IMG/VR virus record: IMGVR_UViG_3300048998_000202
Length of the DNA: 64,000 bases
From: a virus
Lineage: Duplodnaviria; Caudoviricetes
Direction: 5' to 3' (one strand)
Part shown: positions 19,067-54,159 of the stretch, one piece after another
Layout: each line of letters begins with the position of its first letter
How positions within the stretch are numbered: the first letter of the stretch is position 1
The notes under the pieces: model-generated
Database searches by the model: none
What the model was told of the DNA's origin: nothing
Seen by the model: the letters and a program-made list of their open reading frames with translations, nothing else
Made by a program: the position numbers and the translations under genes

Positions 19067-19963
19067 GTGACGATCGAGCGCAGGGCCTCGCCCTTCGACT
19101 CCATCCGGTACGTGGATCCGGACTTCGGCGAGTGCTGGTACGCCCGGGAACTGATGCCGCTGATGGGGTACTCCCTGTGGCGCCACTTCAACTCCGTCAT
19201 CGGCCGGGCCCGGACCTCCATGAGCAACGACGGCCACGACGTCCGGGAGCACTTCTGGCTGATCAAACGGCCTGCCGAGGTTAATGTCGACCGGTCGACA
19301 AAAACCTCTGACCAGGGAGGACGTCCCTCTGTCGACTTTCGACTGAGCCGCCACGCCTGCTACTTCATCGCCATGAACGGCGACCCGAAGAAAGAGCAGG
19401 TAGCGCTCGCGCAGGGCTACTTCGTCGGCCAGACGGTGAAGATGGAGCAGATCGAGAGGGCTATCCAGGCGCCCCCATCTCCTCCCGTGGCGCTTCCGCC
19501 GATGCCCAGTCACATCGAAGCCCTGCGGGGCTGGGCGGACGCCCTGGAGGGCCAGCAGAGGGCCGAGCAGGTCGCTCTGGAGGCCCAGCGCCTCGCGGAG
19601 GAACTGCGCCCCCCTGCGGAGGCGTGGAACGCCCTGGCGGCAGCCGGAGGGGACTGCTCGGTGGCCGAGGCCGCCGCGATCCTCAACCGGGATCCCGGCA
19701 TCGTCACCGGTCCGGCCCGGCTGTTCCGGTGGCTGCGTGAGATAGGCATCGTCTACCGGCGGCCCAACGATCAACTCGTGCCGTACTCCCAGCACCTGAC
19801 GCACGTACGGCTCCGGCCGACCAACGGGGGCGCCACCGAGGTCCGGATCACGCCGGACGGGCTGGTGTGGATTCAGCAGCGGATGCGTCAGGAGCAGCAG
19901 CGTCCGGCACTGACGATCGTGCCGGACCAGAAAGCCGATGTGGTTCCGATACGTAGGACCTGA
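19067..19963 (+). CDS. phage antirepressor (BRO/DinD-like N-terminus plus ANT/KilAC C-terminus)
   Basis: SPFDSIR, WYARELMPLMGY, LSRHACYFIAMNGDPKKEQVALAQGYF; SVAEAAAIL..RLFRWLR..VRITPDGL. Confidence 0.88.
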   Translation: MTIERRASPFDSIRYVDPDFGECWYARELMPLMGYSLWRHFNSVIGRARTSMSNDGHDVREHFWLIKRPAEVNVDRSTKTSDQGGRPSVDFRLSRHACYFIAMNGDPKKEQVALAQGYFVGQTVKMEQIERAIQAPPSPPVALPPMPSHIEALRGWADALEGQQRAEQVALEAQRLAEELRPPAEAWNALAAAGGDCSVAEAAAILNRDPGIVTGPARLFRWLREIGIVYRRPNDQLVPYSQHLTHVRLRPTNGGATEVRITPDGLVWIQQRMRQEQQRPALTIVPDQKADVVPIRRT

Positions 19964-20063
19964 TAGAGTCAAGTCTTGCAGGGCACGGTAGGGCTAGGCT
20001 AGGCAAGGCCCGGCGCGGCAGGGCACGGCATGGAAGGGCGTCATCCTTCGGGGTGGCGCCCTC
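19961..20063 (+). ncRNA. GGY-NN repeat small-RNA cassette B
   Basis: TGATAGAGTCAAGTCTTGC, 10 pentamers (NN: AC AG TA TA AA CC GC AG AC AT), hairpin AGGGCGTCATCC-TTC-GGGTGGCGCCCT. Confidence 0.85.
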
Positions 20064-20825
20064 AGTCGTTTGACCACAGACATGGCGAAGGCCCCCAGCT
20101 CCACGAGTTGCTGGGGGCCCTGCTGTGCCCGGATCGGGGCCGCCCAGGCGGACGGGCTATGCTCCGCGTTCGCTGCCTCTGCGCTTGACGACGCAGTACC
20201 GGCGTAACGAGGACTTCCCCTACGCCCTTGTTTTCCGGGCTGGCAAGAGGACGTAGCTCGCCATGGTCGGCTCGGATGTGCGTCCGAGGTGCCCGGTCAC
20301 GCCGTCGAGTTCTCCCAAGACGGCGCGGATCTATGGTGCCCCGTTCCGGCCACAGGAGGGGCGGGCCTGCCGTTCGGACGGTCTAACGAGACCGCACGGC
20401 CTGAGACACGCGAGACCGTGCTTCCCCTCAGGGGCCGACTTCCCGGAACTCGAAGGGGAACCCAGGTCATCGGCTGATCTCACGTGCGTCTTGGGTGCCC
20501 CCATATGGCCACAGGAGGGGACGAACCTGATGTGCGGGAAACGGAAGCAACCCTGGCCGTGTGTCCGACAACTGCGAAGAAGCGGACACCGTACGGGGAA
20601 GGCGATTTGCACGCCGACACGAACTCCCTAGGTGGGACATCGGGAGGTGACGCGGGCTCCGCCCCGAACTCCCACCGGGGTTTCACCCTCCCCGCTCGGG
20701 CGACCAGAGACTTCTTCAGCTCCTGGTCGCCGTCGCGCCGTGCATCCTACCGAGCTGATCCACGAACATCGGCTCGGGCTGACGAGAAAGACGCTACTCC
20801 AACGAATGCCGGAGTAGCAAGTCGA

Positions 20826-22385
20826 TCACGTCATCCCCTGAGTCAAGATCTCCCGCCGCATGGACGCCGTCAGGAACTCCTCGCCGGTTACCCCGTGGCC
20901 CAGCAGGGCGTCCGAGTGGCCGTTGCCCCGCAACATGCTGTACATCAGCGAGACCTCGACGGACTTCTGGACCAGCATGCTACGGATCGTCAACGACGGG
21001 CCCCCGGAGCCGATCCTGGAGGCCCGGTTGATCCGTTGGGTCCGCAGGCCGAATGTCGTGGCGAGATCGTATTCGACCACGTAGGACGCCTCGGGCAGGT
21101 TGATCCCCCGGGCAACCGCGTCTGAGGCGAGCAGGATCGCACCCCCCTGATGCTTTTTAAAATGATCGATGCCGTCCTCCTCGTCATGGGTGAAGACGGG
21201 GAGGTGTCGAGCCGTCAGAGCCGCACGCAGGTGTGGGATCACCGAGGGGCCGAAGAAGCTGAAGACCAGCACCTTGGCGTCCTGGCTCTTGACGATCGGC
21301 TCTACGTATTCCACGAGGCGATCGGTCTTCGCCGACGGCAACGCCCGGATGTAGTCCTCGCCGTACTCCTCCACGAGGGCTCTGGCGAGCTTGGACTTGC
21401 CCACGGTGGCTGAGTGGATGAGGGCCGCAGGGTGGGCACAGATCTGCCTCAGAGCGGTCATCTGGCCCGGGGCGTCCAGTTCCTCGACGAAGTCATAGAG
21501 CTTGCGCTGATCCCCCTCCAGATCGATCCACAAGGACTCCTCAGTCGTGGCCGGGAACTGGTCGATGACGTCAGCGTCGGTCTTGGACTTCGCCAGCACC
21601 ATCGGAGAGCACAGGTCGGCGAACTCCCCCATCCGGAAGTCGTGGTACCGGGCCCGGCCGTATACGTCCCTCCCCCGTACGAAGTACTTCTCGAACTCAC
21701 CTATGCGCGGCATCAATGCCGGTCGCAAGAGCCGCAGTTGGTTGAATGAGTCCTCCCAGTTCTTGCGGACCGGTGTCGCGGTCAGCATGACCACGGGGAT
21801 TTTAAAAACCTTCCGGAGAGTCTTGAGGACGTGTTCGTACGATCGATAGTTCATGGCCGATCGGTTGCTCAGCCGGTCGGCCTCGTCAAAGATGATCATG
21901 GGGTGTCGCGCATGATCGAAGATCCTGGTGAGCAGGTCACCAGAGGAGAGCTTCCGGCCTTTGCGGCCCGTCTTCTCGGCCTGAACCAGATCCGCTTTTC
22001 CGGTCTCGAACGTGGTGATGAGCACCTGCGGCAGACCGTCCCGGGCCAGCTTCCCCTTGCGGGATGGTCCGTGGTGGATCCGAACGTCCAGCTTGGTGAA
22101 CTCCTCGAAGTCTGCCTTCCACTCCTTGAGCTTCCCTCGCTCACAGACGAGCAGGACGAAGTCCATGACATCGTCCTCGAAGCCGAGTGTGGCCAGCCGC
22201 ATGGCAGCGTGGGACTTCCCCAAGCCGGTGTCCCAGACGAACATCCATCCCGGAATTCCGGACTGGATTCCTAGGTACGCCTGTGCGATGTCCTCGGCCT
22301 GGAACGGATACAGGCCGCGAGGACTGTAGTAGAGAGCCCCCTCCGGCCAGGAGCTGGAGGGGGCCTCAGTGACCGTGGCCGTCAC
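20826..22385 (-). CDS. SNF2-family helicase/ATPase
   Basis: WDTGLGKS, FDEAD, MLTATP, RGINL, QRINRASRIG. Confidence 0.9.
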   Translation of the reverse strand: MTATVTEAPSSSWPEGALYYSPRGLYPFQAEDIAQAYLGIQSGIPGWMFVWDTGLGKSHAAMRLATLGFEDDVMDFVLLVCERGKLKEWKADFEEFTKLDVRIHHGPSRKGKLARDGLPQVLITTFETGKADLVQAEKTGRKGRKLSSGDLLTRIFDHARHPMIIFDEADRLSNRSAMNYRSYEHVLKTLRKVFKIPVVMLTATPVRKNWEDSFNQLRLLRPALMPRIGEFEKYFVRGRDVYGRARYHDFRMGEFADLCSPMVLAKSKTDADVIDQFPATTEESLWIDLEGDQRKLYDFVEELDAPGQMTALRQICAHPAALIHSATVGKSKLARALVEEYGEDYIRALPSAKTDRLVEYVEPIVKSQDAKVLVFSFFGPSVIPHLRAALTARHLPVFTHDEEDGIDHFKKHQGGAILLASDAVARGINLPEASYVVEYDLATTFGLRTQRINRASRIGSGGPSLTIRSMLVQKSVEVSLMYSMLRGNGHSDALLGHGVTGEEFLTASMRREILTQGMT

Positions 22386-22672
22386 GCGGCCACCTGCTCG
22401 GGATCTATCACCAGGAACTCCCAGGAGACCTGGGCCAGACCGCTGGGCTCCATGAGTTTGAACGCCACCAGCTCATTGCCGCTGTACAGCTCCAAGGCGG
22501 GATGGGCCACATCCACAACCCCGTAGAACGTCACGTGGTCCTCGCCGATCACCCTTCGCGCGGGGGCCTCCCGGCCGCCGCACTTGATCGTCCAGGGACC
22601 GGAATCGTGCAGGGCGCGCTCGATCTGGCGAGCGCGCATCACGATCTGCGCGGTCATCATGTCGAGTGTCAC
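22382..22672 (-). CDS. hypothetical protein
   Basis: GGAGG RBS; GTGA coupling to the SNF2 gene. Confidence 0.6.
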   Translation of the reverse strand: MTLDMMTAQIVMRARQIERALHDSGPWTIKCGGREAPARRVIGEDHVTFYGVVDVAHPALELYSGNELVAFKLMEPSGLAQVSWEFLVIDPEQVAA

Positions 22673-22743
22673 GGGATCCTCCAGGAATTGTTCCTAGCAG
22701 GATATTAGCTACCCGGAGAAACCTCGTCTACGTGATCATCTGA

Positions 22744-24645
22744 TCAGAATCCGAACGGACTGACCTGGAAGGCCCAGGCGGATGTTCCGGACATGAGCCG
22801 GTAGCCATGCTTCACGCGAGCGTTGAAGGTGCTGTCAGTGAATGTGGCGACCGACGATCCGTTCACTCGGATCGTCACGCTGGTCCCGGAGCAATCCGCC
22901 TGCAACAGGTCTCCGGCGGCCGGTTTGGTGCTCAAGGTGGCCAGCGTCGATCCGATGGTGTTTCCGGCGACGGAGTACACCGCCGAGCGGCCCACCAGGA
23001 TGCCCGTGGGGACCGCTACAGGCTGCCCACTCACGATGGACTGGGCGAGATAGGACCGGACCATCAGGCCCGTGTACAGGTCGCTGTCGGGGTAGCTGGA
23101 GGTCGCCGCGCTGTATCCGAAGCGTCCCTGGACCGTGACGTCGGCTCGTCCGCACGAGTACAGGGCCGGAAGACCGTGGGTGGGGAAGGGGGCGAGGGCC
23201 GCGTTGAGCACCACCGTGTTGGAGGCCACGGTGAAGGCGTTGGCGGCCCGGTAGTCCGTGGAGGTGGGCGGGAGCTTCCACTGGAGGGCCTGACCGGTCT
23301 CGGCGAACTCCAGGGCGGTGCCGTTCGGGTGAGTGCCGGATTCGGTGAGTACCGGAGTGGCCACCGTGTAGATCAGACCGATCTTCGACAGGTAGGCCAG
23401 CAGGGACGTCAGCATGGTGTTGGAGACGTCGCCGGGATCAATGGCCACCTGAGGTCGGGTGGTCCCGGTGGCCCCGAAGAACCCCAGGGTGGTGGAGGTT
23501 CCGGAGTGGGTCCGGTGGCCGTTGACAATGACGTCGCCGACGACCTTCAAGGCGACCTGGGTGGCCAAAGTGCCGCCGATGTTGAGCAGCGAAGGGCTGA
23601 AGGCCGTGCTGTTGGTCCCGGCGGCCAGGGGGCCCACTCCCCCGAACCAGTCGGTGGCCGACACCACATCGCTGGGGTCTCCGGCCAGGGTCTTGTTGGC
23701 CCCAAGAGCGATGGGGATCTGGCTTCCGGCCCAGGGCAGCCCGTTCTGCTGGGCGATGTTGGCCACGCCGATGGTGGTGTGGTTGCTCCCGGCGGACGAG
23801 GTGGGGTGGTTGGCGCCGATCTTCAGTGCCCCGGAAGCTCCGATGACGTTGCCGGGCCCGACCACTGTGGATCCGTTCGGGACCGACATGGAGCCGGAGG
23901 GTCCGTTGAGAGAACCCACGACGGTCATGTCCCGGCCCTGCTTGGTCAGGTTGGCCGCGCCGAGCGTGGTGGAGTTGCCGGTGGCGTCACCGCTCTCCGA
24001 GGACAGCACCGTGGCGAAGTCGCCCGGTGTGCCGGTGGAGAGCTGGGCTGCGATCTGGCCCACGCCCAGGATGGTCGCTGAGGCGCCGTAGACGTCAGCC
24101 TGCTCGCCCAGGGCGGAAGATCCGGCGGAGTTCGCCGCCGCGTTCTCTCCCGCGTGGTAGCCCACCCAGGACTGGTAGGGGTTGAAGTCGGTGGGCGCCT
24201 CTCCGGTGAGGACGACCGAGCCCGCCGAATCGCCCACGTGCTGGTGGGTACCGACGGGATCGGTTACCCGGAAGACGGCCTCGCCGGGGAGCGATGACAT
24301 CAGAACGCCCTGGTAGACCGTGGTGTCAGCGTCCGTGATCATGATGGGGGCGTGGGTCTGGGCGATCTGGTCCGGGGGCGGCATGAGGTCCACGCCGTCC
24401 AGCACGATCCGAACGTTGTCGGAGACTTCCGCGATGATCTGCACCCGGGAGGGGACGTCCATCCAGACGTCGATCACGGCGGGGTCGACGAACAGCGGGA
24501 AGGCGATCGGGTTGCCGCCGGAGGACTGGACGAAGACGTCGACATCCAACGGGATGCCGGAGGCGTCGTTCAGCGTCACCAGGGCGTATGGGAAGACCGT
24601 CCCGGAGCTGTTGATCAGGGGCAGGTGCAGATGAGCACGGGTCAC
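22744..24645 (-). CDS. tail fibre-like virion protein
   Basis: GTG coupled to the upstream stop; N-terminus RAHLHLPL..paralogous to the two upstream genes; G/S/T-rich. Confidence 0.7.
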   Translation of the reverse strand: MTRAHLHLPLINSSGTVFPYALVTLNDASGIPLDVDVFVQSSGGNPIAFPLFVDPAVIDVWMDVPSRVQIIAEVSDNVRIVLDGVDLMPPPDQIAQTHAPIMITDADTTVYQGVLMSSLPGEAVFRVTDPVGTHQHVGDSAGSVVLTGEAPTDFNPYQSWVGYHAGENAAANSAGSSALGEQADVYGASATILGVGQIAAQLSTGTPGDFATVLSSESGDATGNSTTLGAANLTKQGRDMTVVGSLNGPSGSMSVPNGSTVVGPGNVIGASGALKIGANHPTSSAGSNHTTIGVANIAQQNGLPWAGSQIPIALGANKTLAGDPSDVVSATDWFGGVGPLAAGTNSTAFSPSLLNIGGTLATQVALKVVGDVIVNGHRTHSGTSTTLGFFGATGTTRPQVAIDPGDVSNTMLTSLLAYLSKIGLIYTVATPVLTESGTHPNGTALEFAETGQALQWKLPPTSTDYRAANAFTVASNTVVLNAALAPFPTHGLPALYSCGRADVTVQGRFGYSAATSSYPDSDLYTGLMVRSYLAQSIVSGQPVAVPTGILVGRSAVYSVAGNTIGSTLATLSTKPAAGDLLQADCSGTSVTIRVNGSSVATFTDSTFNARVKHGYRLMSGTSAWAFQVSPFGF

Positions 24646-27452
24646 TTGTACGTCACCGCCTGGCTGTACTGGTCGTAGACCCACAGGTAGTTGAAGTTGG
24701 CCGTACCGGTACCGCGTATTCCGAGACCGAATCGGTTGCTGGCCAGCAGGGCCGCCGTGGTGTCTGTCGCAGAGCCGGTCAGGTTGTTGTTGCGGTAGAC
24801 CTGGATCAGCCCGGTGGTGCCGTTGAGGGCCACCTGCATCCGGTCTCCCGCTGCGAAGTTCGAGCTGAGGGTGGCCAGGGTGGTCTGGGTACCTGCCAGG
24901 ACCCGGGTGATCTGCGAATTGTTGATGAAGTAGTAGTTGTTGGGGTCCACATACCGGCAGACGAGGCCCATGGATGTGGTGGGGGTGGTGCCCGTGGCCC
25001 ACTTCAGGTTCGCCACTTTGCCCAAGGTGTTGGTTCCGGACAGGACGTACGCGAGGGCGTAACCGCTGGCGGCCCCGGTGAGCTGGAGGTTGCCCGCCAC
25101 CGTTACGGTGGCTGCCGCTCCGACGCCGGAGAGTACGGGCCACCATGCCTCACTGGAAGGCGCATTGACGAGGGCCCCGGTGGTCTGGAAGGCGTCCCAC
25201 GTCTGCTGCGGAATGAAGTTGATGTTGTTGAACTTCGTCGTGGTCTGGCCGAGGTCGACCCCGACGTAAGTGCCGGAGGAATTCAGACTTCCGGTGGACC
25301 AGACGATCGGCATTCCCGAGAGGCCGTCGCTCCACATGACGTTGTTTCCGGAGCAGGACACGATGTGGAAATGGGTCGCACCGTCGAAGATGGTGGACCC
25401 GATCGTGGTGAGGTTCACCGGGGAACCGATAACGGTATAGGTGTCGGAATGCGCCGCAGCGGCCTTGACCGCGAAAGAAATCGTATTCGCGGCCTGGTCC
25501 AGGAGCAGGTATCCGGCCGCTGCCGCGTCTCCGGCATCTCCGGTGTGCCGTAGGGCGAGGCATGCCCTGTTACCGGTGCTGGTAAAGGTCAAGCCGATCT
25601 GATAACTCTGCTTGGTGGTCAGCATGTTCTTCAGCACGCCGATACCGGAGGCGAATCCCTTGTAGGCGTTGTGGTCGCTGCCGACGAACCACTGCGGGCC
25701 CGAGGGGTACGGAGTGTTGCTGGAGTAGGCCAGGGGGAGATAGCTGTAGGGCTGGTAGTCGAAGTCGGCTACGCCCAGCGATCCGTCACCCGGGTCTTGG
25801 TGGTAGAAAAAGTCGATCGGTCCGACCGGGCTCCGGAAGGGACTCGGCTGCTGGGTCGAGTTGTTGATGATCAGGCCCATGTTGGCCAGAGACTGGACGA
25901 GGGTGCGCAAAGTGACGTTGCCGTCGTCGGAACCGCTGACCGTCTGGATCGTATTTCCGGCAGAGCCGTAGAAACCGACTCTGGACGTCGGGGTGCCCAA
26001 AGAGGCGATGCCGTAGTTCTGGATGCCGCCGAGGACCGTGGCCAGGGCGCCGTCGTTGCCCAGCATGATCTGGTTCGCACTGGTGGTCGCCGAGTTCGCA
26101 CCGAGCGCGATCGAGTTGTTGTGGGAGGCACCCACTGAGGCGTTCAACCCCAGCGCGAGGGAGTTCGGGCCCAGCGCAGAGGCGTTCTGGCCGATGGCCA
26201 CCGCTGATCCGGCTGCCGCCCCGACCGTGGCACTCGATCCGACGGCCACCCCGTAGTCGGAGGACACGGTGGCGCTCTTGCCGACGGCCACAGCCTCCAG
26301 GCCGCCCGCGTTGGTGTTGTATCCGACGGCCGTCCACGCGGTGGCGGTACCGCTGCCGGTGGCGCCCGAACCGACCGCGAGGGAGTAGTCCGTGGGAGCG
26401 CTGGCGTTGTAGCCCGCCGCGAGGGCGCTGACGCCCACTGCGCTGGCGTTGTAGCCGAAGGCGGTGGCGTTGGTCCCTGACGCTGTGGCGGGCGCTCCTA
26501 CGGCCGTGGAGCCGGTCGCACCGGCCGTTGACCCGGTACCCAGGGCCACCGAATTGCTTCCCGTACCGCTGTGGCTGTGCGGAGGCACGTTGCCGCCGTA
26601 CAGGGCTACGTAGCCGGTCACCCAAATCTCGTGTGGGGTGGTGCCGTCGTACGAGGACTGGCCGGTGTAGGTCAGCAGTGAGTGCCAGGTCCCGGCGGCC
26701 AGGTCGAAGGAGTAGAAGCCCCAGTCCCGGTCCTGGGAGACGGTGGCCTGGGTGGTCTGCACCGAGGCGCCGTCCACGATCTTGACGGTGAAGGTCTCCG
26801 TCGGTGCGATGTCGCTCTTGATCCACATGGAGACGCGTCCGGCCTCCAGCAGGGTGAAGGTGGGGCCCGTGAGGGTCTCCAGTCCCCCGTTGGCCGACTG
26901 GGTCATCTTCAGGGAGTGGAGATAATTCGTCCCGGGTGGGATGGTCCCGGCGTCATAGGAGTGGGTCGCGCCCCCGCTCTGGACGAAGGTCCAGCCCACG
27001 GGGTCGGATCCGGTGGCGAAATTCTGAGAGGCGACGACGACGACCGGGGACAGGCCGGTACCCGACGGAGGATTGCCCCACTGGACCTGTCCAGCGGTGC
27101 TCGTGCTGAGCAGCACCTGGCCGGACACCGACGGGGAATTCACGATCTCCAGCGGGGAGTCCGTGGTGACGATCTGCTCCGGCGGGGGCTGGGCATCGAG
27201 GTAGACCAGGATGTTGTCCATCCCCTCGGCCTCGACCAGGATGGACACCCGCTGGGGAGTGTCCAGCCAGAAGTCGATCACGCCGTTGTCGGCAGTGAAG
27301 GGGTTCGCCAGTTCGTCGGTCCCGCTCGAACCGGCGTACAGCGATTGGCCGATCGGGATGGCGTAGTTCACCTCGCGTACCGTCACCGTCGCGCTGTAGA
27401 GCAGATCACCGCTGCGATTGGTGATGGGGCGGAACAGGTGTGCTCGGGCCAC
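24642..27452 (-). CDS. tail fibre-like protein with YadA-head (Hep/Hag-type) repeats
   Basis: About 14-residue repeats SVALG..S.A / ATAFGYNASA / SIALGANS. Confidence 0.75.
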   Translation of the reverse strand: MARAHLFRPITNRSGDLLYSATVTVREVNYAIPIGQSLYAGSSGTDELANPFTADNGVIDFWLDTPQRVSILVEAEGMDNILVYLDAQPPPEQIVTTDSPLEIVNSPSVSGQVLLSTSTAGQVQWGNPPSGTGLSPVVVVASQNFATGSDPVGWTFVQSGGATHSYDAGTIPPGTNYLHSLKMTQSANGGLETLTGPTFTLLEAGRVSMWIKSDIAPTETFTVKIVDGASVQTTQATVSQDRDWGFYSFDLAAGTWHSLLTYTGQSSYDGTTPHEIWVTGYVALYGGNVPPHSHSGTGSNSVALGTGSTAGATGSTAVGAPATASGTNATAFGYNASAVGVSALAAGYNASAPTDYSLAVGSGATGSGTATAWTAVGYNTNAGGLEAVAVGKSATVSSDYGVAVGSSATVGAAAGSAVAIGQNASALGPNSLALGLNASVGASHNNSIALGANSATTSANQIMLGNDGALATVLGGIQNYGIASLGTPTSRVGFYGSAGNTIQTVSGSDDGNVTLRTLVQSLANMGLIINNSTQQPSPFRSPVGPIDFFYHQDPGDGSLGVADFDYQPYSYLPLAYSSNTPYPSGPQWFVGSDHNAYKGFASGIGVLKNMLTTKQSYQIGLTFTSTGNRACLALRHTGDAGDAAAAGYLLLDQAANTISFAVKAAAAHSDTYTVIGSPVNLTTIGSTIFDGATHFHIVSCSGNNVMWSDGLSGMPIVWSTGSLNSSGTYVGVDLGQTTTKFNNINFIPQQTWDAFQTTGALVNAPSSEAWWPVLSGVGAAATVTVAGNLQLTGAASGYALAYVLSGTNTLGKVANLKWATGTTPTTSMGLVCRYVDPNNYYFINNSQITRVLAGTQTTLATLSSNFAAGDRMQVALNGTTGLIQVYRNNNLTGSATDTTAALLASNRFGLGIRGTGTANFNYLWVYDQYSQAVTYK

Positions 27453-45179: not shown

Positions 45180-45183
45180 AGGG

Positions 45184-47276: not shown

Positions 47277-47309
47277 TACATACCCTCCGGGACCGGTTAG
47301 ATCGCGCTT

Positions 47310-47343: not shown

Positions 47344-47349
47344 GGAGGG

Positions 47350-48012
47350 TCAGTGCCACTCGGAGAACTGGCCTCCGGTGAGGTCCACTCCGTCTACCGG
47401 GGTGTACGTGAGCTCTCCCGGCAGCTCTTCTACGGGGATCATCACGATCTTGGAGAGGTTGATCAAAGTGCCTGCCGCCGGATCCGGGACGAACTCTCCG
47501 ATGATCTCCAGATTCAGGGACTTCTCGTACATGATCTCGTCGGTGCCCCAGGGGGTACCGGGAGCGGCCCCGTTGCCGCGCCCTTCGATCTTGTCCGTGT
47601 TGAGGGTCGCGGCGATCAGATCGTTGGAGGCGATGGTGTTCTTGAAGCGGCCGACGATGCCGTCTTCATTGCTGAAGGCCACCACTCGCACCAGCTCGTC
47701 ATAGAGCCGGTCTCGCTCCAGTGACGTCATGGCCACCGCCGTGAGGGAGACGTAGCCCTGAAACCGCCAGCGGGTGAAGGGGGCGACCGGAGTGGTGTCG
47801 TCGTTGGGATTGACGTACTCCAGGTGCCCGATGCCCGCACGCAGCAGTGGTTGGGTGTCCTCGAAGTCGATCCAGACCGAGGGGTAGTCCTGCTCGGCGA
47901 CCGGGTATTCCAGACCGATACGGATCCCCCGGAACTCCGGTACCGGATAGGACTCGTCGAAGGTCAGCGTGAGGGCCTCGTCCAAGAGGGTTTTCAGCGG
48001 GGCGACGTACAT
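47350..48012 (-). CDS. tail completion/terminator protein, putative
   Basis: Position upstream of the sheath; EYP...YPSV motif. Confidence 0.6.
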   Translation of the reverse strand: MYVAPLKTLLDEALTLTFDESYPVPEFRGIRIGLEYPVAEQDYPSVWIDFEDTQPLLRAGIGHLEYVNPNDDTTPVAPFTRWRFQGYVSLTAVAMTSLERDRLYDELVRVVAFSNEDGIVGRFKNTIASNDLIAATLNTDKIEGRGNGAAPGTPWGTDEIMYEKSLNLEIIGEFVPDPAAGTLINLSKIVMIPVEELPGELTYTPVDGVDLTGGQFSEWH

Positions 48013-48016
48013 GGGA

Positions 48017-48724
48017 TCAGCTCACCTTCAGCCGGGACCGCCAGGTGCCGTCGGCCAGATAGACACGGGTGGGGAGAATGCCGTTCCACTGTGCGGCCAA
48101 AGTGACCGCATTATTCAAGAACAGCCGGGGTTCGATACCCGGGTGCCGCCAGCGCACGCCGACGTTCCCCCGGGAGATCTGGCCGCCCTGTTTCCCGTTC
48201 CTGGTCCAGGGGGCTGATGCTTCCCGGTTGGCGATCCGGCCCGGGGCACCGGGGTAGGACGCGGGCTTGTCGGAGATGACGACGCGGTTGCCCTGCCGGT
48301 CCTTGCCGTACTTGGTGATCCGCTGGCCGATGTTGGCCACCTTGCGGAAGATCAGCACCTGCGTCTTGCCGGACATGGTGACCCGGACCTTGGCCTTGGG
48401 GTTCTTCGCCCGCTCCTGGCCAGTGGGGTCGTTGATCCACATGGGAATGGTCTTACCGGCGAGATTCCTCATGGTGAAGGGACGAATTCCGTGGTCCTGA
48501 AAGAACACATAGGAGTCGGCCCACCAAATTCCGAAATACCCTTTTCCGTAGATCGGCTGGAGCCGGGCTGCGCTGGAACCGGACATCTTCGGCATTTTTC
48601 TACGGCATTCCCGTACGGCTGCAAGCGCGCACGATCGGGCCCGGCCCGGCGTCATCTTGGGGACGACCATGATGATTCGGTCCGGATTTTCCGCGATTCT
48701 CAGTTCGGCCGTTTCCAAAAGCAA
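48017..48724 (-). CDS. basic neck/virion morphogenesis protein
   Basis: FQDHGIRPF and WRHPGIEPRLFL resemble HK97 gp10-like motifs. Confidence 0.55.
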   Translation of the reverse strand: MLLETAELRIAENPDRIIMVVPKMTPGRARSCALAAVRECRRKMPKMSGSSAARLQPIYGKGYFGIWWADSYVFFQDHGIRPFTMRNLAGKTIPMWINDPTGQERAKNPKAKVRVTMSGKTQVLIFRKVANIGQRITKYGKDRQGNRVVISDKPASYPGAPGRIANREASAPWTRNGKQGGQISRGNVGVRWRHPGIEPRLFLNNAVTLAAQWNGILPTRVYLADGTWRSRLKVS

Positions 48725-48753
48725 TATTATCGCCCACCCAAGTAGGTCAGTCC

Positions 48754-49509
48754 TCAGTCCAGGCCCGAGTCGTGATGCTCGTTCCAGTCGTCCTCGTCCT
48801 CGTAGTTGTCCGAGTCGTCGTGTCCGAGGTCCTCTTCGCCCACCACGGAGAAGCCGTGCTTGGACCGCATGTCATCGTCGAAATTGCCCCGCAGATTGCC
48901 GTGCTCGTCGCGAGCGGGGTCCTTCTCTACTGGTCCCCTGGGCTCAACCTGATAGACGTGGGGACGCACGCCATCATGCATTTCGGCTGCACGATCGGCG
49001 TAGTGCTCAGCCCACTTCCGGCTGGTGGCGTAGGCATAGCCGGGCTCATGGATACCGCCGTTGTTGCCGAAGGTCCCCCTGGTCCCGTGGTTGGGGTGGA
49101 TGTGCTCCAGGTCTGCTTCGGTGCTGCCGTGGTAGTACATCGGGGCGGTGCCGGACTCGTTCGAGGACTGGTCGTGGATGTGCACCGGCACCTCGCCGTG
49201 CCCGGCGTCGCGCAGGGCGTGCAGCAGGTGCTCGTGGTGGTCGTTCGGGTGGTCCGGGTGGGCCTCGGTCCCGCGCGAGTGCGTGTAGAGGTTCTCTCCG
49301 TTGTCGGTGACGTTGATCCCGAGCTGGCCGTGTCGTTTCGGGTTGTAGCCGTGCTGCTTGATCGAGCTGGCCAGCTCGTCGATGTGCTTGCCGTTCAGCT
49401 CGTACCGGCTCTTGTCCCCCTCCATGTCCCCGGGGTGGATGTGCTCCTCGGAGTCCTGGGGAGCCCAGGAGGCCGTACGGACCATGGCAGTACGCCAGAG
49501 AAGGCTCAT
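48754..49509 (-). CDS. degenerate ParB-like domain plus Arr-type ADP-ribosyltransferase domain
   Basis: YYHGS...YAYATS...VYQVEPRGPVEKDP...MRSKHGFSVVGE parallels the Arr ART pattern. Confidence 0.65.
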   Translation of the reverse strand: MSLLWRTAMVRTASWAPQDSEEHIHPGDMEGDKSRYELNGKHIDELASSIKQHGYNPKRHGQLGINVTDNGENLYTHSRGTEAHPDHPNDHHEHLLHALRDAGHGEVPVHIHDQSSNESGTAPMYYHGSTEADLEHIHPNHGTRGTFGNNGGIHEPGYAYATSRKWAEHYADRAAEMHDGVRPHVYQVEPRGPVEKDPARDEHGNLRGNFDDDMRSKHGFSVVGEEDLGHDDSDNYEDEDDWNEHHDSGLD

Positions 49510-50270
49510 CAGTGGTAGTCCCCGTAGTGCTCGTAGTCCTCGTGGTCGGGCATGAGACCCTCGGAGTCGGGCAGGCCGCCGTGCTTGTCGGCGTTGAAGT
49601 GCCAGGCGTCGATGTGGTGGTCACCGCGCTGGAGGGCGGCTCCGACCCGGTGGTGGCCTTCGATGGTGTGCAGGCGTCCCCCGTGGGTGACCATCAGAGG
49701 CGCCTCGTCCCCCAGGTACCGGCCGCTGCCGTTGTCGTTGTGGGTGGGGGCGCTGGGATGAAACTTGTACTTGTCCAGGTGGTTCTGGGAGACGTGGCTC
49801 TGGGTGGCGTAGACCGGCTGGCTCTTGATGTCCACCGGCTCATGGGTGGCGTGCTGGTGCCAGAAGGACTTGTTGGTGCCGTGGTTGCCCACGAAGTCCA
49901 TCAACTCGTCATCCTCGTGGTCCGGAGTGCTCTCCTGCCGGGACTTGCGCTTCTTCTCGTCGATGGCGTTGTCGTACGCCTCGTTGTGCCGGTCCTGGTA
50001 CTCCTCCGGGTACTCCCCGTGTTCCTCGTTGTGGGCCTCCTCCTCCGGCGTGGGCTCTGGCCGGGTGCTGTCGTGGAGGTCCTCGTCGAAGCCGTCATTC
50101 TCCTCGTCATCGTCCTCGTCGTGTCCATAGTCCTCGGCTCGCTCCGGAGACATGTCCACGTATCCGGCGAACCCGGCGTTACGAACGGAGTGCACGACGG
50201 GATGGTGCTCACCGTTCTCGGTGTGCCACGCCATGGCCTCCCGTTGAACCCGAGCAAAGAGCAAGCTCAT
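49509..50270 (-). CDS. acidic His-rich protein with ParB/Srx-like domain
   Basis: VYATQSHVS...PLMV..GRLHTIEGHHRVGAA. Confidence 0.65.
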   Translation of the reverse strand: MSLLFARVQREAMAWHTENGEHHPVVHSVRNAGFAGYVDMSPERAEDYGHDEDDDEENDGFDEDLHDSTRPEPTPEEEAHNEEHGEYPEEYQDRHNEAYDNAIDEKKRKSRQESTPDHEDDELMDFVGNHGTNKSFWHQHATHEPVDIKSQPVYATQSHVSQNHLDKYKFHPSAPTHNDNGSGRYLGDEAPLMVTHGGRLHTIEGHHRVGAALQRGDHHIDAWHFNADKHGGLPDSEGLMPDHEDYEHYGDYH

Positions 50271-50282
50271 TTTAAAATCTTT

Positions 50283-50990
50283 CTAAGCGAGGTCGTCAAC
50301 GGGGATGAGTGGAGAGCGGATGATTTCGTAGGCGGAGAATGACACCGGCTCGGTCACGGAGACGCTGAGGATCTGGACAAGATCATCGGCGTTCGGGGGG
50401 ATCAGGTACGCCACGGTGCTGTAGTCCTCCAGCGACGCCCTGGCGTGGTTGTATCCCACGGCCATGGAGCGCTGGTAGGGGGTGGCGAAGCCGGTGCGGA
50501 GGGTGATGCGCTCGGGCACCCGCAGGAAGAACCGGTGTCCGGTGGAGCGGAAGCAGTAGTCCCCCGTACGGACGCGGAAGTCGGGCGTGGATTCCATGTC
50601 CAGGTCGTCACTGGAGACCACACCACGCGCCTGGTACTTCATGTCCTCGTCGGTGTCGCCGAAGATCGCCGGGCGCACGATGATCGCCTTGAATCCGCCC
50701 TCGAAGGTCGTCCCGAAGCAGTCGGGGCATTTGTTGCGTTCGCCCTGCTGGTACGCCTGCGAGAAGCGGTTGTAGCAGACCGAGCAGCGCGCCACGAGGC
50801 CGTTCTGGAAGTCCTCCAGGTGCCACATGAGCGTGAACATCGTCCACTCACCCACCGTGTACAGGGCCTGGAGGTGCCGCTGGCGCTCCTGGTCCACCGC
50901 CCAGCGCTGCGGCTGGCGGATGTAGTAGGGCTGGAGGGTTGCGCGACTGTGCGGCACCATCCCGTTCGGCTGAGGGATCCCCAGGGGCAT
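50283..50990 (-). CDS. head-tail connector/neck protein, putative
   Basis: CSVC...CPDCFGTTFEGGF motif; position. Confidence 0.55.
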   Translation of the reverse strand: MPLGIPQPNGMVPHSRATLQPYYIRQPQRWAVDQERQRHLQALYTVGEWTMFTLMWHLEDFQNGLVARCSVCYNRFSQAYQQGERNKCPDCFGTTFEGGFKAIIVRPAIFGDTDEDMKYQARGVVSSDDLDMESTPDFRVRTGDYCFRSTGHRFFLRVPERITLRTGFATPYQRSMAVGYNHARASLEDYSTVAYLIPPNADDLVQILSVSVTEPVSFSAYEIIRSPLIPVDDLA

Positions 50991-50998
50991 GGTGTCTC

Positions 50999-51220
50999 CT
51001 ACTCGACCGGACGCAAGGTGACCTGGGACGGAGTCACTTCGAGCTGCATTCCGTATCGGGCGAGCACCTCGGAGATCTCCTGAGAACAGGCGACCATGCG
51101 CTGCTGCTGCTCTTCGGCGAGGAGCTGGCGAGCCGCCGTCAGTGCGTCGCCTTCGACGGCGGATGCCGAAGGCGACCCTTCCTCCAGGTGGTTGCTGTGC
51201 ATTCCGTCCTCCGGGGTCAT
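50999..51220 (-). CDS. small hypothetical protein
   Basis: ATGA-coupled to the fibre gene. Confidence 0.55.
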   Translation of the reverse strand: MTPEDGMHSNHLEEGSPSASAVEGDALTAARQLLAEEQQQRMVACSQEISEVLARYGMQLEVTPSQVTLRPVE

Positions 51221-53970
51221 GCGATCTTCGTGACGCGCAGCCACGAGTTGGCGAACAAGGTGGTGGCTGTGGCGCTGGACGTGGCCTGGGCCCAGCGCAG
51301 GGTCAGACTCCCGGCGGTGCTCCCGACCGTCAGCAGCCCTCGGGGAAGGGCGACGGCCTTGACTCCGGCTCCGGAGGCTCCCACTGTGTCCTCGACCCCG
51401 AGAGGCTGCCGGGCGAGTTTGATGCTGCCGGTGCCGCCGGTCTGACTGGCCGAGGCCCCGTTGACGGTCCAGTCCATGAGGGCGCCGGTCGGACCGGTGA
51501 AGGTGACGCGCAGGTCTCCTGCGGTGTCGCCGTCGTAGAGCAGGAAGGCGTCCATGAGGTAGATGCCGTTGGCGGCGACTGATACGACAAGTTGGTCATC
51601 GTCCTGGACGGTGATGCTGCTCGTCACCGTCTCGTCTGCGGTCTTGCGGACGACTGTGATTGGCTGCTGTCCGTGGGCAAGGTCGTAGTCCGTGCCGTCG
51701 GAGCCCTTCCAGCGGGGCAGGCCGGACGAGGAGTACATGACGCCGCCGCCGGTAGGGGTTCCTGCCGGAGGGGTCGTGGCGTCGGCCATGCCCAGGACCC
51801 CGATGCCGCCGCCCAGTGAGGTGGTGTTCAGGCGCAGTGCGGTGGTGGCCTGGAGGGCCCCGTCGGTCTTGAGGACAGCGACGTTGGAGCGGTAGAGGTT
51901 GGTGTCCCGGGTGGCCGCCCCGGTGCCCCACTCCTGCTTGCCGTCCACGTACGTGACGTGCCGGGTGGTGGTGTCCCCCGACACCTGGCCCTGCCAGGAG
52001 CGGGCCGTGGTGTCCGTACCCGTCACCATGGCCCCCTGGCCGCCGGTAGCGGTCGGCAGGATCGTCAGGGCTATACCGCTGGCGCGGGTGAGGGACAGGC
52101 CGCCAGCGGTGCCTGAGGAGCCTCCGATGGACACCAGGCCCGTGGAGCGGGTCACGGCGATCGGGGCGTCCAGGAGGGTGCCTGCATCGTCGTAGCGCAG
52201 GATCTGGAGGTCGGTGCCGGTGTCACCGCCAGCTTCGGTGGTGTTGTTGGCCCGCAGGATCCAGCGGCGGCCCGTGGTGCCCATGTCGCTAGAGATCGAC
52301 AACTGGAGGTCCTTGTGGACCGTGTTGTTGCCGCCGACACGCAGGGCGGTGTTCTGGCCCGCGTAGGTCCCGGTGGCCATGTTCTGGGCCCGGACCGAGA
52401 AGTCCGCCAAGTTGGTGCGGATGTTGGTGTAGTCGATACCGATCGCCACGTTGTCGATCGCGTGGGCGCCGTCCACGGCCTGATTGATGAACGGCACCTC
52501 CAAGCGGCCCTGGAGGGCGCCTGTGGAGTCCGCGATCTCCAGTTCCCAGTGCCCGTGTACCGAACCGTGGTCGTTCGCCTCGTAGTGCGCGCCCGTCCAC
52601 ACCACGGGCTTCCAGCCGATGCCGCTCGACATCGGATTCCGGGTGGCCGGGTCGTAGCCGCCCTTCTTCGTGGAGGTCTGGACGGGAAGGTAGAACGCCA
52701 GCATGGTCTTGGCGTCGCTGCGCATGGCGAAGTTGCGAATGGTCTCGCCGAAGGAGCTGAAGTTGGCCCGCTGATACGAGTACAGATTCAGGCGGCCCGT
52801 GGTGTCGGTGCCGGTGCCGTCGTCGTCGCCTCCGGTGTAGGTGGAGGGGATGCTGACGGAGTCCACGGCCCCGGTGCTGCCGATGGGGTATCCCGACACG
52901 GCTCCGAAGCGGTTGAGGACGAGCTGTCCTGCAACCGTGCCACCGGCAAGCGGCAAGTAGGTGCTGGCGGCATTCGCCCGATCCCCATGAGGATCACTGG
53001 CGGCCACATGCGAGGCCACCACGGCCGCCGGGGCGTCTCCGGCAGCCACGGTGGTGGAGGACGTCCCCACATTCTTGGTGGCAGCGCCCCCCAGACCCAG
53101 GCTGGTACGCGCTGTCGCGGCATCATCGAGGTCGGAGAGGTTCGAGTCGGCCTGGAGAGCGCCCGTGATGCGGGAGTCGTCTCCGGCCGCGATCTGGTTG
53201 GTGGAGGTACCGACGTTGCGGGTGGAGGAGTTACCGAGGCCGAGGTTGGTGCGTGCGGTAGGGGCGTCGAGGTCAGAGAGGTTCGCGGACTTCTGAGCGG
53301 CTCCGGTGATGCGGGCGTCCCCGCCGTCGGCCACGGTGCCGCTCGTGGTGCCCACGTTGCGCAGGGCTGCCGCGCCCAGCCCGAGGTTGATGCGGGAGGC
53401 GCCCGCGTCGTCGAGGTCGGAGAGGTTGTTCTCGACCAGCAGGCGACCGGATTCGACATCCGTGACCCGACTGGCCAGCGTGGCTCCGGAAGAGGCCGAA
53501 TAGGCACCTACGTCGCTTGAGGTCAGCGTCACCGGACCGGTCTTGGTGTTGACCGATGTCACTGCGGAGGAGGGCGCCGGAGGGAGTTGGCCCGAGGGCA
53601 CCTTGCCGTCACTCCCGAGCGAGGCCACGCCGTTGGCTGCGCCCTTCGCGCTGACCGGAACGTAGGAGCCGCTCAGCGACTGCACGATCTGGCCGGTCTG
53701 GGCGTACAGGGTGGTGAGGGCCCCGGCGCTGTTCCTGGCGTAGACCTGGGTGAGGCCGTCAGGGCCGAGGAACTGCGGGATCAGGCAGTCCGAACCGATG
53801 TCCAGAGTGGAGCCGATGGGAGTGCCGTTGGGCGCCTGGATGCTGGCGAGGGTAGTCCCGGCCGAGTCGGTGTAGATGGTGACCGTGTCGCCCTGGGGGC
53901 TGTACAGGGGTGTTCCGGGCGTACCGTACCGAAAGACCAGGCGGTCCTGGGGGAACAGCCAGCGCGTCAA
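51217..53970 (-). CDS. tail fibre/appendage protein
   Basis: KGAANGVASLGSDGKVP, VTSVNTKTG, three NLSDL..ARTNLGLG repeats, DTNLYRS. Confidence 0.8.
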   Translation of the reverse strand: MTRWLFPQDRLVFRYGTPGTPLYSPQGDTVTIYTDSAGTTLASIQAPNGTPIGSTLDIGSDCLIPQFLGPDGLTQVYARNSAGALTTLYAQTGQIVQSLSGSYVPVSAKGAANGVASLGSDGKVPSGQLPPAPSSAVTSVNTKTGPVTLTSSDVGAYSASSGATLASRVTDVESGRLLVENNLSDLDDAGASRINLGLGAAALRNVGTTSGTVADGGDARITGAAQKSANLSDLDAPTARTNLGLGNSSTRNVGTSTNQIAAGDDSRITGALQADSNLSDLDDAATARTSLGLGGAATKNVGTSSTTVAAGDAPAAVVASHVAASDPHGDRANAASTYLPLAGGTVAGQLVLNRFGAVSGYPIGSTGAVDSVSIPSTYTGGDDDGTGTDTTGRLNLYSYQRANFSSFGETIRNFAMRSDAKTMLAFYLPVQTSTKKGGYDPATRNPMSSGIGWKPVVWTGAHYEANDHGSVHGHWELEIADSTGALQGRLEVPFINQAVDGAHAIDNVAIGIDYTNIRTNLADFSVRAQNMATGTYAGQNTALRVGGNNTVHKDLQLSISSDMGTTGRRWILRANNTTEAGGDTGTDLQILRYDDAGTLLDAPIAVTRSTGLVSIGGSSGTAGGLSLTRASGIALTILPTATGGQGAMVTGTDTTARSWQGQVSGDTTTRHVTYVDGKQEWGTGAATRDTNLYRSNVAVLKTDGALQATTALRLNTTSLGGGIGVLGMADATTPPAGTPTGGGVMYSSSGLPRWKGSDGTDYDLAHGQQPITVVRKTADETVTSSITVQDDDQLVVSVAANGIYLMDAFLLYDGDTAGDLRVTFTGPTGALMDWTVNGASASQTGGTGSIKLARQPLGVEDTVGASGAGVKAVALPRGLLTVGSTAGSLTLRWAQATSSATATTLFANSWLRVTKIA

Positions 53971-54004
53971 CTCTGCCTCCAGCAGTCGGCCCGGGAAGGG
54001 GTTC

Positions 54005-54038
54005 TCACCCCTTCTTCGGACTCAGGAGATCCAGGACA
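54005..54038 (-). promoter_or_regulatory. candidate late promoter TGTC-N20-GAAGGGGTGA
   Basis: Upstream of the fibre gene, right after the cassette C hairpin. Confidence 0.7.
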
Positions 54039-54041
54039 TGG

Positions 54042-54151
54042 CTGAGGGCGCCACCCCGAAGGATGACGCCCTCCCCTGCCGCGCCGCGCCTCGCCCTGCC
54101 ATGCCGAGCCTAGCCGTGCCGTGCCGCGCCGTGCAAAACCTGACTCTATCA
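54042..54151 (-). ncRNA. GGY-NN repeat small-RNA cassette C
   Basis: TGATAGAGT, 11 GGC-NN pentamers (GC AC AC TA TC AT AG GA GC GC AG), hairpin nearly identical to cassette B. Confidence 0.85.
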
Positions 54152-54159
54152 GGTCCTGG

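What the first reader, a model, noticed from the sequence alone, without database searches (positions are those of the whole stretch)
19955..54157. Solo guide cassettes are dispersed to gene ends; B and C share flanks but have different payloads
B (19961, +) and C (54151, -) share GGACCTGATAGAGTCA upstream and AGGGCGTCATCCTTCGG(G)GTGGCGCCCTCAG downstream, yet their NN strings are unrelated. In A, B, F and E1 the TGA of the head motif is the stop codon of the preceding gene; in C and D1 it lies 8 and 3 nt after a stop. Inference: cassettes are copied or moved as units to neutral gene ends, and payloads are rewritten by an unknown acquisition mechanism.
Basis: partly seen in the sequence, partly recalled or inferred. 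Interest (0 to 1): 0.7.

Follow-up and report, generated by a model that had tools for sequence, protein, structure and literature searches.

The report
Scattered VIPR guide-RNA genes, reshuffled modules
B and C are stand-alone guide-RNA genes of a phage VIPR silencing system (a kind described in 2026); each sits directly behind a gene's stop codon, and related phages show these sites empty or holding a different guide, so the guides turn over as modules with no sign of a special rewriting machine.

Summary
B (19955-20076, +) and C (54039-54157, -) share a 17-nt head, AGGACCTGATAGAGTCA, and 33 of 34 tail bases. Their NN strings match only at chance level (10/22, p=0.79). The stop-codon claims hold, but F has no GGY-NN tract and is not a guide.

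The cassettes are vrRNA genes of a VIPR system, described in 2026 bioRxiv preprints. ORF 56719-57339 matches the solved SUSP1 Vipr protein (E=3e-35).

The head motif is probably a phage promoter (TGn + TAGAGT). The same motif also precedes a protein gene and non-guide RNAs.

In related phages:
- A complete VIPR-null sister has every cassette site empty. At site C the gap is precise: TGACC|TGTCC.
- VIPR-positive sisters hold cassettes at the same A, B and C sites, with unrelated guides and often different tails.
- Five cassettes in four phages share the B/C tail but carry five unrelated guides.
- The one conserved guide (D3) has three different heads and tails.

So head, guide and tail reassort. 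Guides at orthologous positions have diverged faster than synonymous sites. Recombination of modules explains this, and nothing supports a dedicated payload-acquisition mechanism.

No target was found for A, B or C.

This scan noted the same dispersal earlier on another genome (e1-5735403).

The parts
19955..20076 (+). Cassette B, a solo vrRNA gene. Head/promoter 19955-19971, with TGA 19961-19963 serving as the stop of the Ant gene. Leader 19972-19981. Ten GGY-NN units 19982-20031 (NN: AC AG TA TA AA CC GC AG AC AT). Tail hairpin 20032-20066. Relic -35-like TTGACC at 20070-20075.
54039..54157 (-). Cassette C, a solo vrRNA gene between two tail-fibre genes. Head 54157-54141. Leader 54140-54131. 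Eleven GGY-NN units 54130-54076 (NN: GC AC AC TA TC AT AG GA GC GC AG). Tail hairpin 54075-54042. This 119-nt stretch is exactly what is missing from the empty site TGACC|TGTCC in the VIPR-null sister.
15313..15458 (-). Cassette A, a solo vrRNA gene. Head TGA 15452-15450 is the stop of the 87-aa gene 15450-15713. Repeat tract 15373-15432. It is followed by a terminator hairpin; the VIPR-null sister has a (different-sequence) terminator hairpin at the same position.
19067..19963 (+). Ant/KilAC + Bro-N antirepressor gene. Its last two codons and stop (AGG ACC TGA) are cassette head sequence.
54160..55923 (-). Upstream tail-fibre-region gene. Its own stop is at 54162-54160, 2 nt before cassette C begins.
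56719..57339 (-). vipr gene, a homologue of the SUSP1 Vipr protein.
56084..56674 (-). Candidate vap partner gene. It is absent, together with vipr, from the VIPR-null sister.
57400..57879 (-). D array of four vrRNA genes upstream of vipr. Each internal unit has TTGACA-N17-(C/T)AGAGT ahead of it.
62591..63345 (+). E array: four vrRNA genes (E1, E4, E5, E6) and two units with the same head and tail but no GGY-NN tract (E2, E3).
55975..56087 (-). F: head motif + GGATTTTAAAATCC palindrome + hairpin. It is not a guide, and it is conserved in the VIPR-null sister too.

Best explanation
B and C, like A, are stand-alone vrRNA (guide RNA) genes of the phage's VIPR system. Each is a self-contained module of about 120 nt: (1) a phage promoter, TGn + TAGAGT, whose TG(A) can double as the stop codon of the gene in front; (2) a short leader; (3) 10-11 GGY-NN pentamers, whose NN pairs read a DNA target with one base skipped per unit; and (4) a GC hairpin tail. 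The Vipr protein encoded at 56719-57339 would load these RNAs in trans and silence matching DNA. The modules derive from array units and were inserted directly behind stop codons. Once occupied, a site is inherited, while its content is replaced. Head, guide and tail reassort by recombination between cassettes, within a genome and between co-infecting relatives, using the conserved promoter/leader, GGY scaffold, 3'-terminal units and tails as homology. B and C share flanks because they belong to one widespread tail-allele family, not because a guide was rewritten in place. Shown here: the anatomy, Vipr homology, empty and occupied sites, and the mosaic of heads, guides and tails. Inferred: promoter activity, expression, loading by Vipr, and recombination as the process.
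For: Identity.
- GGY-NN tracts of 7-13 units occur at 11 places in the window.
- ORF 56719-57339 matches PDB 36pp_D 'SUSP1 Vipr protein' (E=3.3e-35) and Felixounavirus proteins at 36% identity.
- The architecture fits the published definition in 10.64898/2026.04.26.720920.
- The 1-nt-skip rule works in this clade. Guide E6 hits the neighbouring gene of three sisters at 21-22/24. The G002 A-site guide hits the window's helicase at 18/20, wobble-aligned, above every shuffle.

Promoter.
- Array units have TTGACA-N17-(C/T)AGAGT.
- The same head precedes a protein-coding ORF in G002 and non-guide RNAs (F, E2, E3), and occurs at 8 or more non-guide sites in G002.

Sites.
- G001 is complete and collinear. 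It lacks vipr and vap, has no GGY-NN tract, and has sites A-E empty.
- Site C is a clean 119-nt indel.
- G002 has cassettes at the orthologous A, B and C sites. L053 has one at B. G405 has one at C.

Reassortment.
- The B/C tail (at least 94% over 36 nt) occurs in five cassettes of four phages with five unrelated guides.
- The only conserved guide (D3; 16-18 of 18-20) carries three different heads and tails.
- The orthologous B and C cassettes of G002 have other tails (72-75% identity).

Rate.
- Pooled guide similarity at eight orthologous positions is at chance (16.8 against 19.2 +/- 2.5). It is well below the 32.9 +/- 5.2 expected if NN had drifted like 4-fold sites, which are 56-64% identical (P<0.003).
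Against:
- The simple sigma-70 and terminator scans call nothing at B or C. The solos lack a -35 box and the hairpins lack a U tract.
- No target was found for A, B or C, so their function as guides rests on anatomy.
- All available relatives are distant (about 75% amino-acid identity), so recombination is inferred from mosaic patterns and no recombinant junction between near-identical genomes was seen.
- The neutral-drift comparison depends on an estimated saturation level. With a lower retention (f=0.20) it is only marginal (P=0.045).
- B in the window and in L053 may share part of a guide by descent (8 of 12 NN by my hand alignment, anchored on the tail; the scripted best register gives 9/16, p=0.11).
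Confidence: 0.6

Rival explanations
1. Duplication followed by point mutation. C (or B) arose as a copy of another cassette. The NN positions then diverged by ordinary substitutions and unit gains or losses under arms-race selection. Promoter, GGY scaffold and hairpin stayed the same because they are functionally constrained. No exchange of modules is needed.
For: Neutral sites between the available phages are heavily diverged (4-fold identity 0.56-0.64), so old duplicates could have randomised NN. GGY positions and hairpins are obviously constrained. B in the window and in L053 share 8 of 12 NN in the six units next to the tail (my hand alignment), which fits descent with mutation.
Against: The tail sequence is not constrained to one allele, since other cassettes use quite different stems. 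Yet this allele is 94-100% identical in five cassettes of four phages, including both G-U pairs and the loop. The conserved D3 guide sits on three different tails and heads. Orthologous sites carry different tail alleles. These mosaics need exchange, not only mutation.
Confidence: 0.22
2. One reading: a dedicated, still unknown acquisition mechanism rewrites the NN payload inside fixed flanks, by analogy with CRISPR adaptation.
For: Five unrelated guides sit on one identical tail. Guides turn over faster than synonymous sites. The published papers do not say how new vrRNAs arise.
Against: No candidate enzyme was noticed near the loci; the locus is vipr plus one small partner gene, and no systematic search for one was made. 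A target would have to be interleaved with GGY every two bases, which no simple copying step does. Tails and heads change too, so the unit of change is not the payload alone. Recombination explains every pattern seen.
Confidence: 0.08
3. B and C are not guides. They could be protein-titrating or decoy RNAs, for example a TRAP- or CsrA-like sponge or G-quadruplex formers, or decaying remnants without function.
For: This was my first reading before the literature search: 11 triplets spaced by 2 nt resemble a TRAP binding site. No target was found for B or C. Published satellite solos act as decoys that redirect Vipr.
Against: A Vipr homologue is encoded in the same genome. Sister cassettes of identical build have significant, wobble-aligned targets. 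The GGY scaffold of B and C is intact apart from the unit that starts each tail (GGA in B, GGG in C). Their sites are retained in several phages.
Confidence: 0.04

Closest known systems
Type II VIPR system of Escherichia phage SUSP1 and the Pseudomonas fulva prophage (Vipr + vap + vrRNAs; bioRxiv 10.64898/2026.04.26.720920)
   Same: Vipr homologue (E=3e-35 to the solved SUSP1 protein). Guide RNAs built from 9-16 GGY-NN pentamers followed by a structured tail. Separate ~100-nt units arranged in arrays next to vipr. 1-nt-skip, wobble-aligned targets in rival phages.
   Different: Here each unit has its own promoter, which often overlaps the stop codon of the gene in front. Tails are variable plain hairpins rather than one conserved pseudoknot. 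Three of the window's eleven guides lie 2.6-41 kb from vipr. In the sister G002, by my count, about ten of some 21 guides lie outside the two arrays.
Solo / orphan vrRNAs of F5 satellites and VIPR-null SUSP1-like phages (bioRxiv 10.64898/2026.10.15.759431)
   Same: Single vrRNA genes that are not adjacent to vipr and act in trans. B and A lie more than 20 kb from vipr, which meets that paper's working definition of 'solo'.
   Different: Published solos sit in elements that lack Vipr, or at the scar of a vipr-vap deletion, and they hijack or target someone else's Vipr. Here the solos belong to a VIPR-positive genome, occupy many conserved intergenic sites, and the VIPR-null relative has none.
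Free-standing homing endonuclease genes of T-even phages (localised marker exclusion) - resemblance only, from general knowledge
   Same: In two cases checked here (E6 and the G002 A-site guide), the weapon lies within 1 kb of the phage's own resistant allele of the gene it attacks in relatives.
   Different: Recognition is RNA-guided and, in type II, predicted to silence rather than cut. The pattern is not seen for A, B or C of this window.
CRISPR arrays
   Same: Variable guide segments are embedded in conserved repeat and flank sequence, with turnover between relatives.
   Different: No Cas1/Cas2 genes were noticed (not searched systematically) and no contiguous spacers. Guides are dispersed as separate transcription units, and there is no evidence of templated acquisition.

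Membership tests
VIPR system (Vipr + vrRNA) | A Vipr (minimal RAMP) protein is encoded in the genome | tested here: met
   ORF 56719-57339 matches PDB 36pp_D 'SUSP1 Vipr protein' (E=3.3e-35, residues 18-202 of 206). tblastn hits in 131 phage records, including Felixounaviruses at 36% identity. phrog_4652, E=1e-58.
VIPR system (Vipr + vrRNA) | The RNA consists of 9-16 tandem pentamers with conserved GGY and variable NN | tested here: met
   B has 10 units and C has 11 (A has 12). GGY is intact apart from the unit that starts each tail, and NN is variable.
VIPR system (Vipr + vrRNA) | A structured 3' tail follows the repeat tract | tested here: met
   13-bp stem with a UUCG loop in both B and C. 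It differs from the SUSP1 pseudoknot tail and varies between cassettes.
VIPR system (Vipr + vrRNA) | NN strings match natural DNA targets under the 1-nt-skip rule, with skips at codon wobble positions | tested here: inconclusive
   Met for sister cassettes: E6 at 21-22/24, and the G002 A-site guide at 18/20, wobble-aligned. For A, B and C no match exceeds shuffled or control patterns in five phage genomes (A, B, C), in IMG/VR with 9 exact units (B, C), in GTDB genomes with 9 exact units (B), or in 401 (B) and 151 (C) Streptomyces genomes.
VIPR system (Vipr + vrRNA) | The RNA is expressed as a ~100-nt transcript and bound by Vipr | not testable with these tools
The phage is uncultured.
VIPR system (Vipr + vrRNA) | An accessory vap gene lies next to vipr | tested here: inconclusive
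   ORF 56084-56674 lies directly downstream of vipr, is co-conserved with it in G002, G405 and G406, and is co-absent in G001. It has only a weak PHROG hit and no Pfam domain. Its fold was not examined here.
Solo vrRNA (as defined in 10.64898/2026.10.15.759431) | [quoted passage not shown] | tested here: met
   B is about 36.6 kb and A about 41 kb from vipr, so both meet it. C is only about 2.6 kb away and is 'solo' only in the sense of not being part of an array (coordinates; definition).

The most novel reading that the evidence does not exclude
The scattering has a logic. A solo guide is placed beside the phage's own recoded, resistant copy of the gene that it silences in rival phages. Guide and antidote allele are then inherited together in recombinants, an RNA-guided counterpart of homing-endonuclease marker exclusion or a toxin-antidote drive. 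Two cases were verified here. E6 lies next to a gene whose motif NFLGVFPVLYSL it matches in all sisters. The G002 A-site guide lies next to the helicase gene, and G002's own copy encodes the same LLLYTSRKA but with Ser and Arg taken from the other codon family. An earlier scan note reports a third case, inside the protease gene. If this is general, B and C should target rival Ant and fibre-region alleles that have not yet been sampled.
Probability: 0.25. Interest if true: 0.75.

Novelty: new variant of a known kind. Interest (0 to 1): 0.5.

Why it matters
VIPR was described only in 2026, and the papers read here do not say how new guides arise or where vrRNA genes can sit. This phage clade offers a natural series: one VIPR-null genome with all sites empty; several VIPR-positive genomes with the same sites filled by different guides; vipr-vap itself at three different loci; and clear reassortment of promoter, guide and tail. 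That makes guide turnover directly testable with population metagenomes. It suggests that annotation pipelines which look only next to vipr miss many guides. It also gives an example of self/non-self discrimination by Ser/Arg codon-family swaps. For B and C themselves the result is modest: they are ordinary members of this system with unknown targets.

Tried and rejected
- First idea: a TRAP/CsrA-like protein sponge or G-quadruplex RNA, because of the 3+2 periodicity. Dropped after earlier scan notes led to the VIPR papers and the Vipr homology was confirmed.
- Rfam (gathering thresholds) and tRNA scans of the window: nothing.
- megablast of the B region against GenBank phages: no match.
- Simple sigma-70 and terminator scans at B and C: nothing called.
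- Targets in phage genomes. NNx scans of the window, G001, G002, G405, G406 and other loci gave nothing above shuffles for A, B or C, at either DNA or peptide level.
- Targets in IMG/VR (9 exact units). B gave one hit, in a 40% GC phage, which I judged to be chance. C gave none.
- Targets in GTDB genomes (9 exact units of B). Seven hits, in line with chance. One is wobble-aligned in a Streptomyces ORF that reads LVLAGFYYLVA. However, 401 Streptomyces genomes at up to 3 mismatches gave 4 hits against 3 for the reversed control.
- Targets of C in 151 Streptomyces genomes at up to 2 mismatches: 1 hit against 1 control.
- A weak resemblance of C's decoded peptide to the KilAC motif YSMxEAA in Ant homologues (6/11) was not borne out.
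- Test for a self allele near A, B or C: not unusual.
- A strict in-register comparison of orthologous guides was discarded, because gains and losses of units shift the register and even the conserved D3 group failed it. It was replaced by a best-offset simulation.
So the contigs encoding the Ant homologues (at most 76% identical to the window's), including P0006 and P0007 (30 contigs each, candidate near-identical strain sets), could not be fetched.
- Mycobacterium phage LittleE (cultured, Vipr 47% identical) has vrRNAs only next to vipr within +/-20 kb, so dispersal is not universal.
Full report
**What is there**

B and C are as described. Each has four parts:
- a head, AGGACC-TGATAGAGTCA;
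- a 10-nt leader;
- a run of GGY-NN pentamers (10 in B, 11 in C);
- a tail that folds into a 13-bp stem with a UUCG loop.

A scan for pentamer runs finds 11 such tracts in the window:
- the solos A (15373-15432, -), B and C;
- four in array D (57400-57879, -);
- four in array E (62591-63345, +).

Three further units carry the same head and a hairpin tail but no pentamers: F, E2 and E3. The shared 16-mer has 10 matches at up to 3 mismatches against 0.5 expected, all at these units. Rfam and tRNA scans find nothing.

**What it is**

My first reading was a protein-wrapping RNA. Earlier notes of this scan pointed to the VIPR system, which I checked in the papers. In VIPR, a small RAMP protein (Vipr) binds vrRNAs made of 9-16 GGY-NN pentamers plus a tail. 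The NN pairs read double-stranded DNA with one skipped base per unit, usually the codon wobble position, and binding represses transcription.

Here ORF 56719-57339 matches the solved 'SUSP1 Vipr protein' (36pp_D, E=3.3e-35). It also matches proteins of Felixounaviruses (36%), Gordonia phages (up to 55%) and Mycobacterium phage LittleE (47%). The cassettes are therefore vrRNA genes. B and A lie about 36.6 kb and 41 kb from vipr, which meets the published working definition of 'solo'. C lies about 2.6 kb away.

**The head motif is probably a promoter**

- Inside arrays, every unit is preceded by TTGACA-N17-(C/T)AGAGT, and the TTGACA sits in the 3' flank of the previous unit's tail.
- The solos lack a -35 box but have TG one base ahead of TAGAGT, an extended -10 layout. 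The actinobacterial -10 consensus TAGRRT is from general knowledge.
- In the sister phage G002 the same head precedes a protein-coding ORF with CxxC motifs. It also occurs at eight or more sites without pentamers.
- F is conserved even in the VIPR-null sister.

So the TGA that ends the preceding gene in A, B, E1 and F is the TG(A) of a promoter element packed against the gene. By my rough count (3 of 5 first-or-solo guides in the window, about 5 of 12 in G002, not formally tested), in-frame use is not clearly above the 1-in-3 chance rate. The real regularity is that cassettes begin 0-20 nt from the upstream stop codon. The simple sigma-70 and terminator scanner calls nothing at B or C, so promoter activity remains an inference.

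**Relatives**

Searches with neighbouring proteins and with the tail sequence gave the following.

| Handle | Size and status | Similarity to the window | VIPR |
|---|---|---|---|
| G001 | 156 kb, complete, collinear | about 63% aa identity | none |
| G002 | 160 kb, complete, collinear | about 75% aa identity | present |
| G406 | 154 kb, complete | Vipr 66% identical | present |
| G405 | 28-kb fragment | Vipr 65% identical | present |
| L053 | 5.8-kb metagenome contig | 76-81% nt identity | covers the B site only |

G001 has no vipr, no vap and no pentamer tract, and sites A to E are all empty.

*Site C*
- The empty form in G001 is TGACC|TGTCC (also in L007, from an 86-kb contig identical to G001 over the stretch shown).
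- The window carries a 119-nt cassette exactly between these two words.
- G002 carries a different cassette, about 100 nt, at the same place.
- G405 carries a third, with the same right-hand junction.

*Site B*
- It is occupied in the window, L053 and G002.
- The last codons of the Ant gene (AGG ACC TGA, AGG CCC TGA, AAG TCC TGA) are cassette head sequence.
- In G001 the gene ends differently.

*Site A*
- It is occupied in the window and G002, between the stop codon and a terminator hairpin.
- G001 has a terminator hairpin of different sequence at that position, without a cassette.

*Other observations*
- G002 has some 21 cassettes, and by my count about ten of them lie outside the two arrays.
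- The vipr-vap pair sits at three different loci in the four VIPR-positive phages.
- In LittleE the vrRNAs lie only beside vipr, within the 20 kb examined on each side, so dispersal is a trait of this clade.

**Guides, heads and tails reassort**

I compared the NN strings of 38 cassettes all-against-all. Only one guide is conserved: D3 of the window, G002_107724 and G405_2719 match at 16-18 of 18-20 positions. That one guide carries three different heads and three different tails.

Every other pair is at chance. B against C is 10/22 (p=0.79), and the orthologous-site pairs for A, B and C are no better.

Conversely, the B/C tail is 94-100% identical over 36 nt in five cassettes: window B, window C, L053 at site B, and one array unit each in G002 and G405. 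These five carry five unrelated guides of 7 to 11 units. The B- and C-site cassettes of G002 have other tails (72-75% identity).

B also keeps TCGTTTGACC after its tail. That is the -35 junction of an array, but no unit follows it, so B looks like a copy of an array-internal unit. C stops a few bases earlier.

**Is the turnover more than drift?**

Four-fold degenerate sites in flanking genes are 56-64% identical between the window and L053 or G002. That leaves about a third of neutral positions unchanged by descent.

I simulated NN strings drifting at that rate. The simulation predicts a pooled best-offset similarity of 32.9 +/- 5.2 for eight orthologous positions. The observed value is 16.8, and chance gives 19.2 +/- 2.5 (P<0.003; P=0.045 if retention is only 0.20).

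Guides have therefore turned over faster than synonymous sites, while one tail allele stayed unchanged, including its two G-U pairs. The single pair B(window)-B(L053) could still share ancestry: 8 of 12 NN match in the six units next to the tail (my hand alignment), and the scripted best register gives 9/16 (p=0.11).

**Mechanism**

The patterns are: the same tail with different guides; the same guide with different tails; different tails at the same site; and precise empty sites. They are what recombination between modular cassettes would produce. Homology for such exchange is available in the promoter/leader, the GGY scaffold, the near-constant 3' units (GGCAT GGCAG GGAGA) and the tails.

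A dedicated writer of NN strings is not needed, and no candidate gene for one was noticed near the loci (I made no systematic search). How a wholly new guide first arises remains open, and the papers are silent on it.

**What the guides do**

Under the skip rule, two cassettes of this clade have clear targets.
- E6 matches the neighbouring gene of G001 and G406 at 22/24, and of G002 at 21/24. The window's own copy scores 18/24.
- The G002 A-site guide matches the window's DinG-like helicase at 16215-16243 at 18/20, wobble-aligned. Both phages encode LLLYTSRKA there. G002 uses AGC and CGC where the window uses TCC and AGG, so its own copy scores 15/20.

In both cases the guide lies within 1 kb of the phage's own resistant allele.

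For A, B and C of the window I found no target. I searched five phage genomes at DNA and peptide level, IMG/VR, GTDB genomes, and 401 and 151 Streptomyces genomes. All results were at control level.

**Limits**

- There are no expression data.
- The tool that could have fetched contigs for the Ant homologues, including possible near-identical strain sets (P0006, P0007), was closed.
- All comparisons therefore span about 25-40% protein divergence.

**Verdict**

The cassettes belong to a known, very recent kind (VIPR vrRNAs). The notion of movable units at gene ends is supported. The proposed payload-rewriting mechanism is not supported.

The same dispersal was noted earlier by this scan on another genome.

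Noticed in passing
window 16215-16243 (+), inside the helicase gene 15713-17728 (-): This phage's DinG-like helicase is a predicted target of the A-site solo guide of sister phage G002 (18/20, wobble-aligned, peptide LLLYTSRKA). G002's own copy keeps the same peptide but uses the other Ser and Arg codon families (AGC/CGC instead of TCC/AGG).
   Followed up: yes
window 55975-56087 (-); also the E5 tail at about 63200-63216: The palindrome GGATTTTAAAATCC follows the head motif in element F, upstream of the fibre genes. It is conserved in G002 and in the VIPR-null G001. Near-copies sit in the loops of several vrRNA tails in the window, G002, G405 and G406. It may be a protein-binding site.
   Followed up: partly
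window 62710-62960 (+), units E2 and E3: Two array units have the normal head, leader and hairpin tail but carry unrelated sequence instead of GGY-NN pentamers. The promoter-terminator module can therefore hold other payloads.
   Followed up: no
G002 about 108 kb; G405 1.5-2.6 kb; G406 56-58 kb: The vipr-vap gene pair sits at three different genomic positions in four related phages and is cleanly absent from a fifth. The whole system is mobile within this clade.
   Followed up: partly
G406 56856-58126 and 151052-151382: In G406 the vrRNA units follow one another, separated only by hairpins and without the TGAYAGAGTCA head. This looks like long processed arrays rather than separate transcription units.
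   Followed up: no
L051 (G405) 1110-1183 (+): A tRNA-His gene lies on the opposite strand between two units of a vrRNA array.
   Followed up: partly
L088 (Mycobacterium phage LittleE) 19687-21458: This cultured mycobacteriophage has five vrRNA tracts flanking its vipr-vap genes. Their tails contain GGTTCGAGTCC, which resembles a tRNA T-arm, although ARAGORN calls no tRNA. Two tracts overlap the annotated CDS gp35, which may be a mis-call. The phage could serve as an experimental model.
   Followed up: partly
window 20085-20820: The gene-free stretch after cassette B has blocks conserved in G002, L053 and even the VIPR-null G001, for example the hairpin around CTCCACGAGTTG and the CTTGTTTTCCGGGCTGGCAAGAGGAC block. 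This fits a conserved non-coding RNA that is independent of VIPR.
   Followed up: partly
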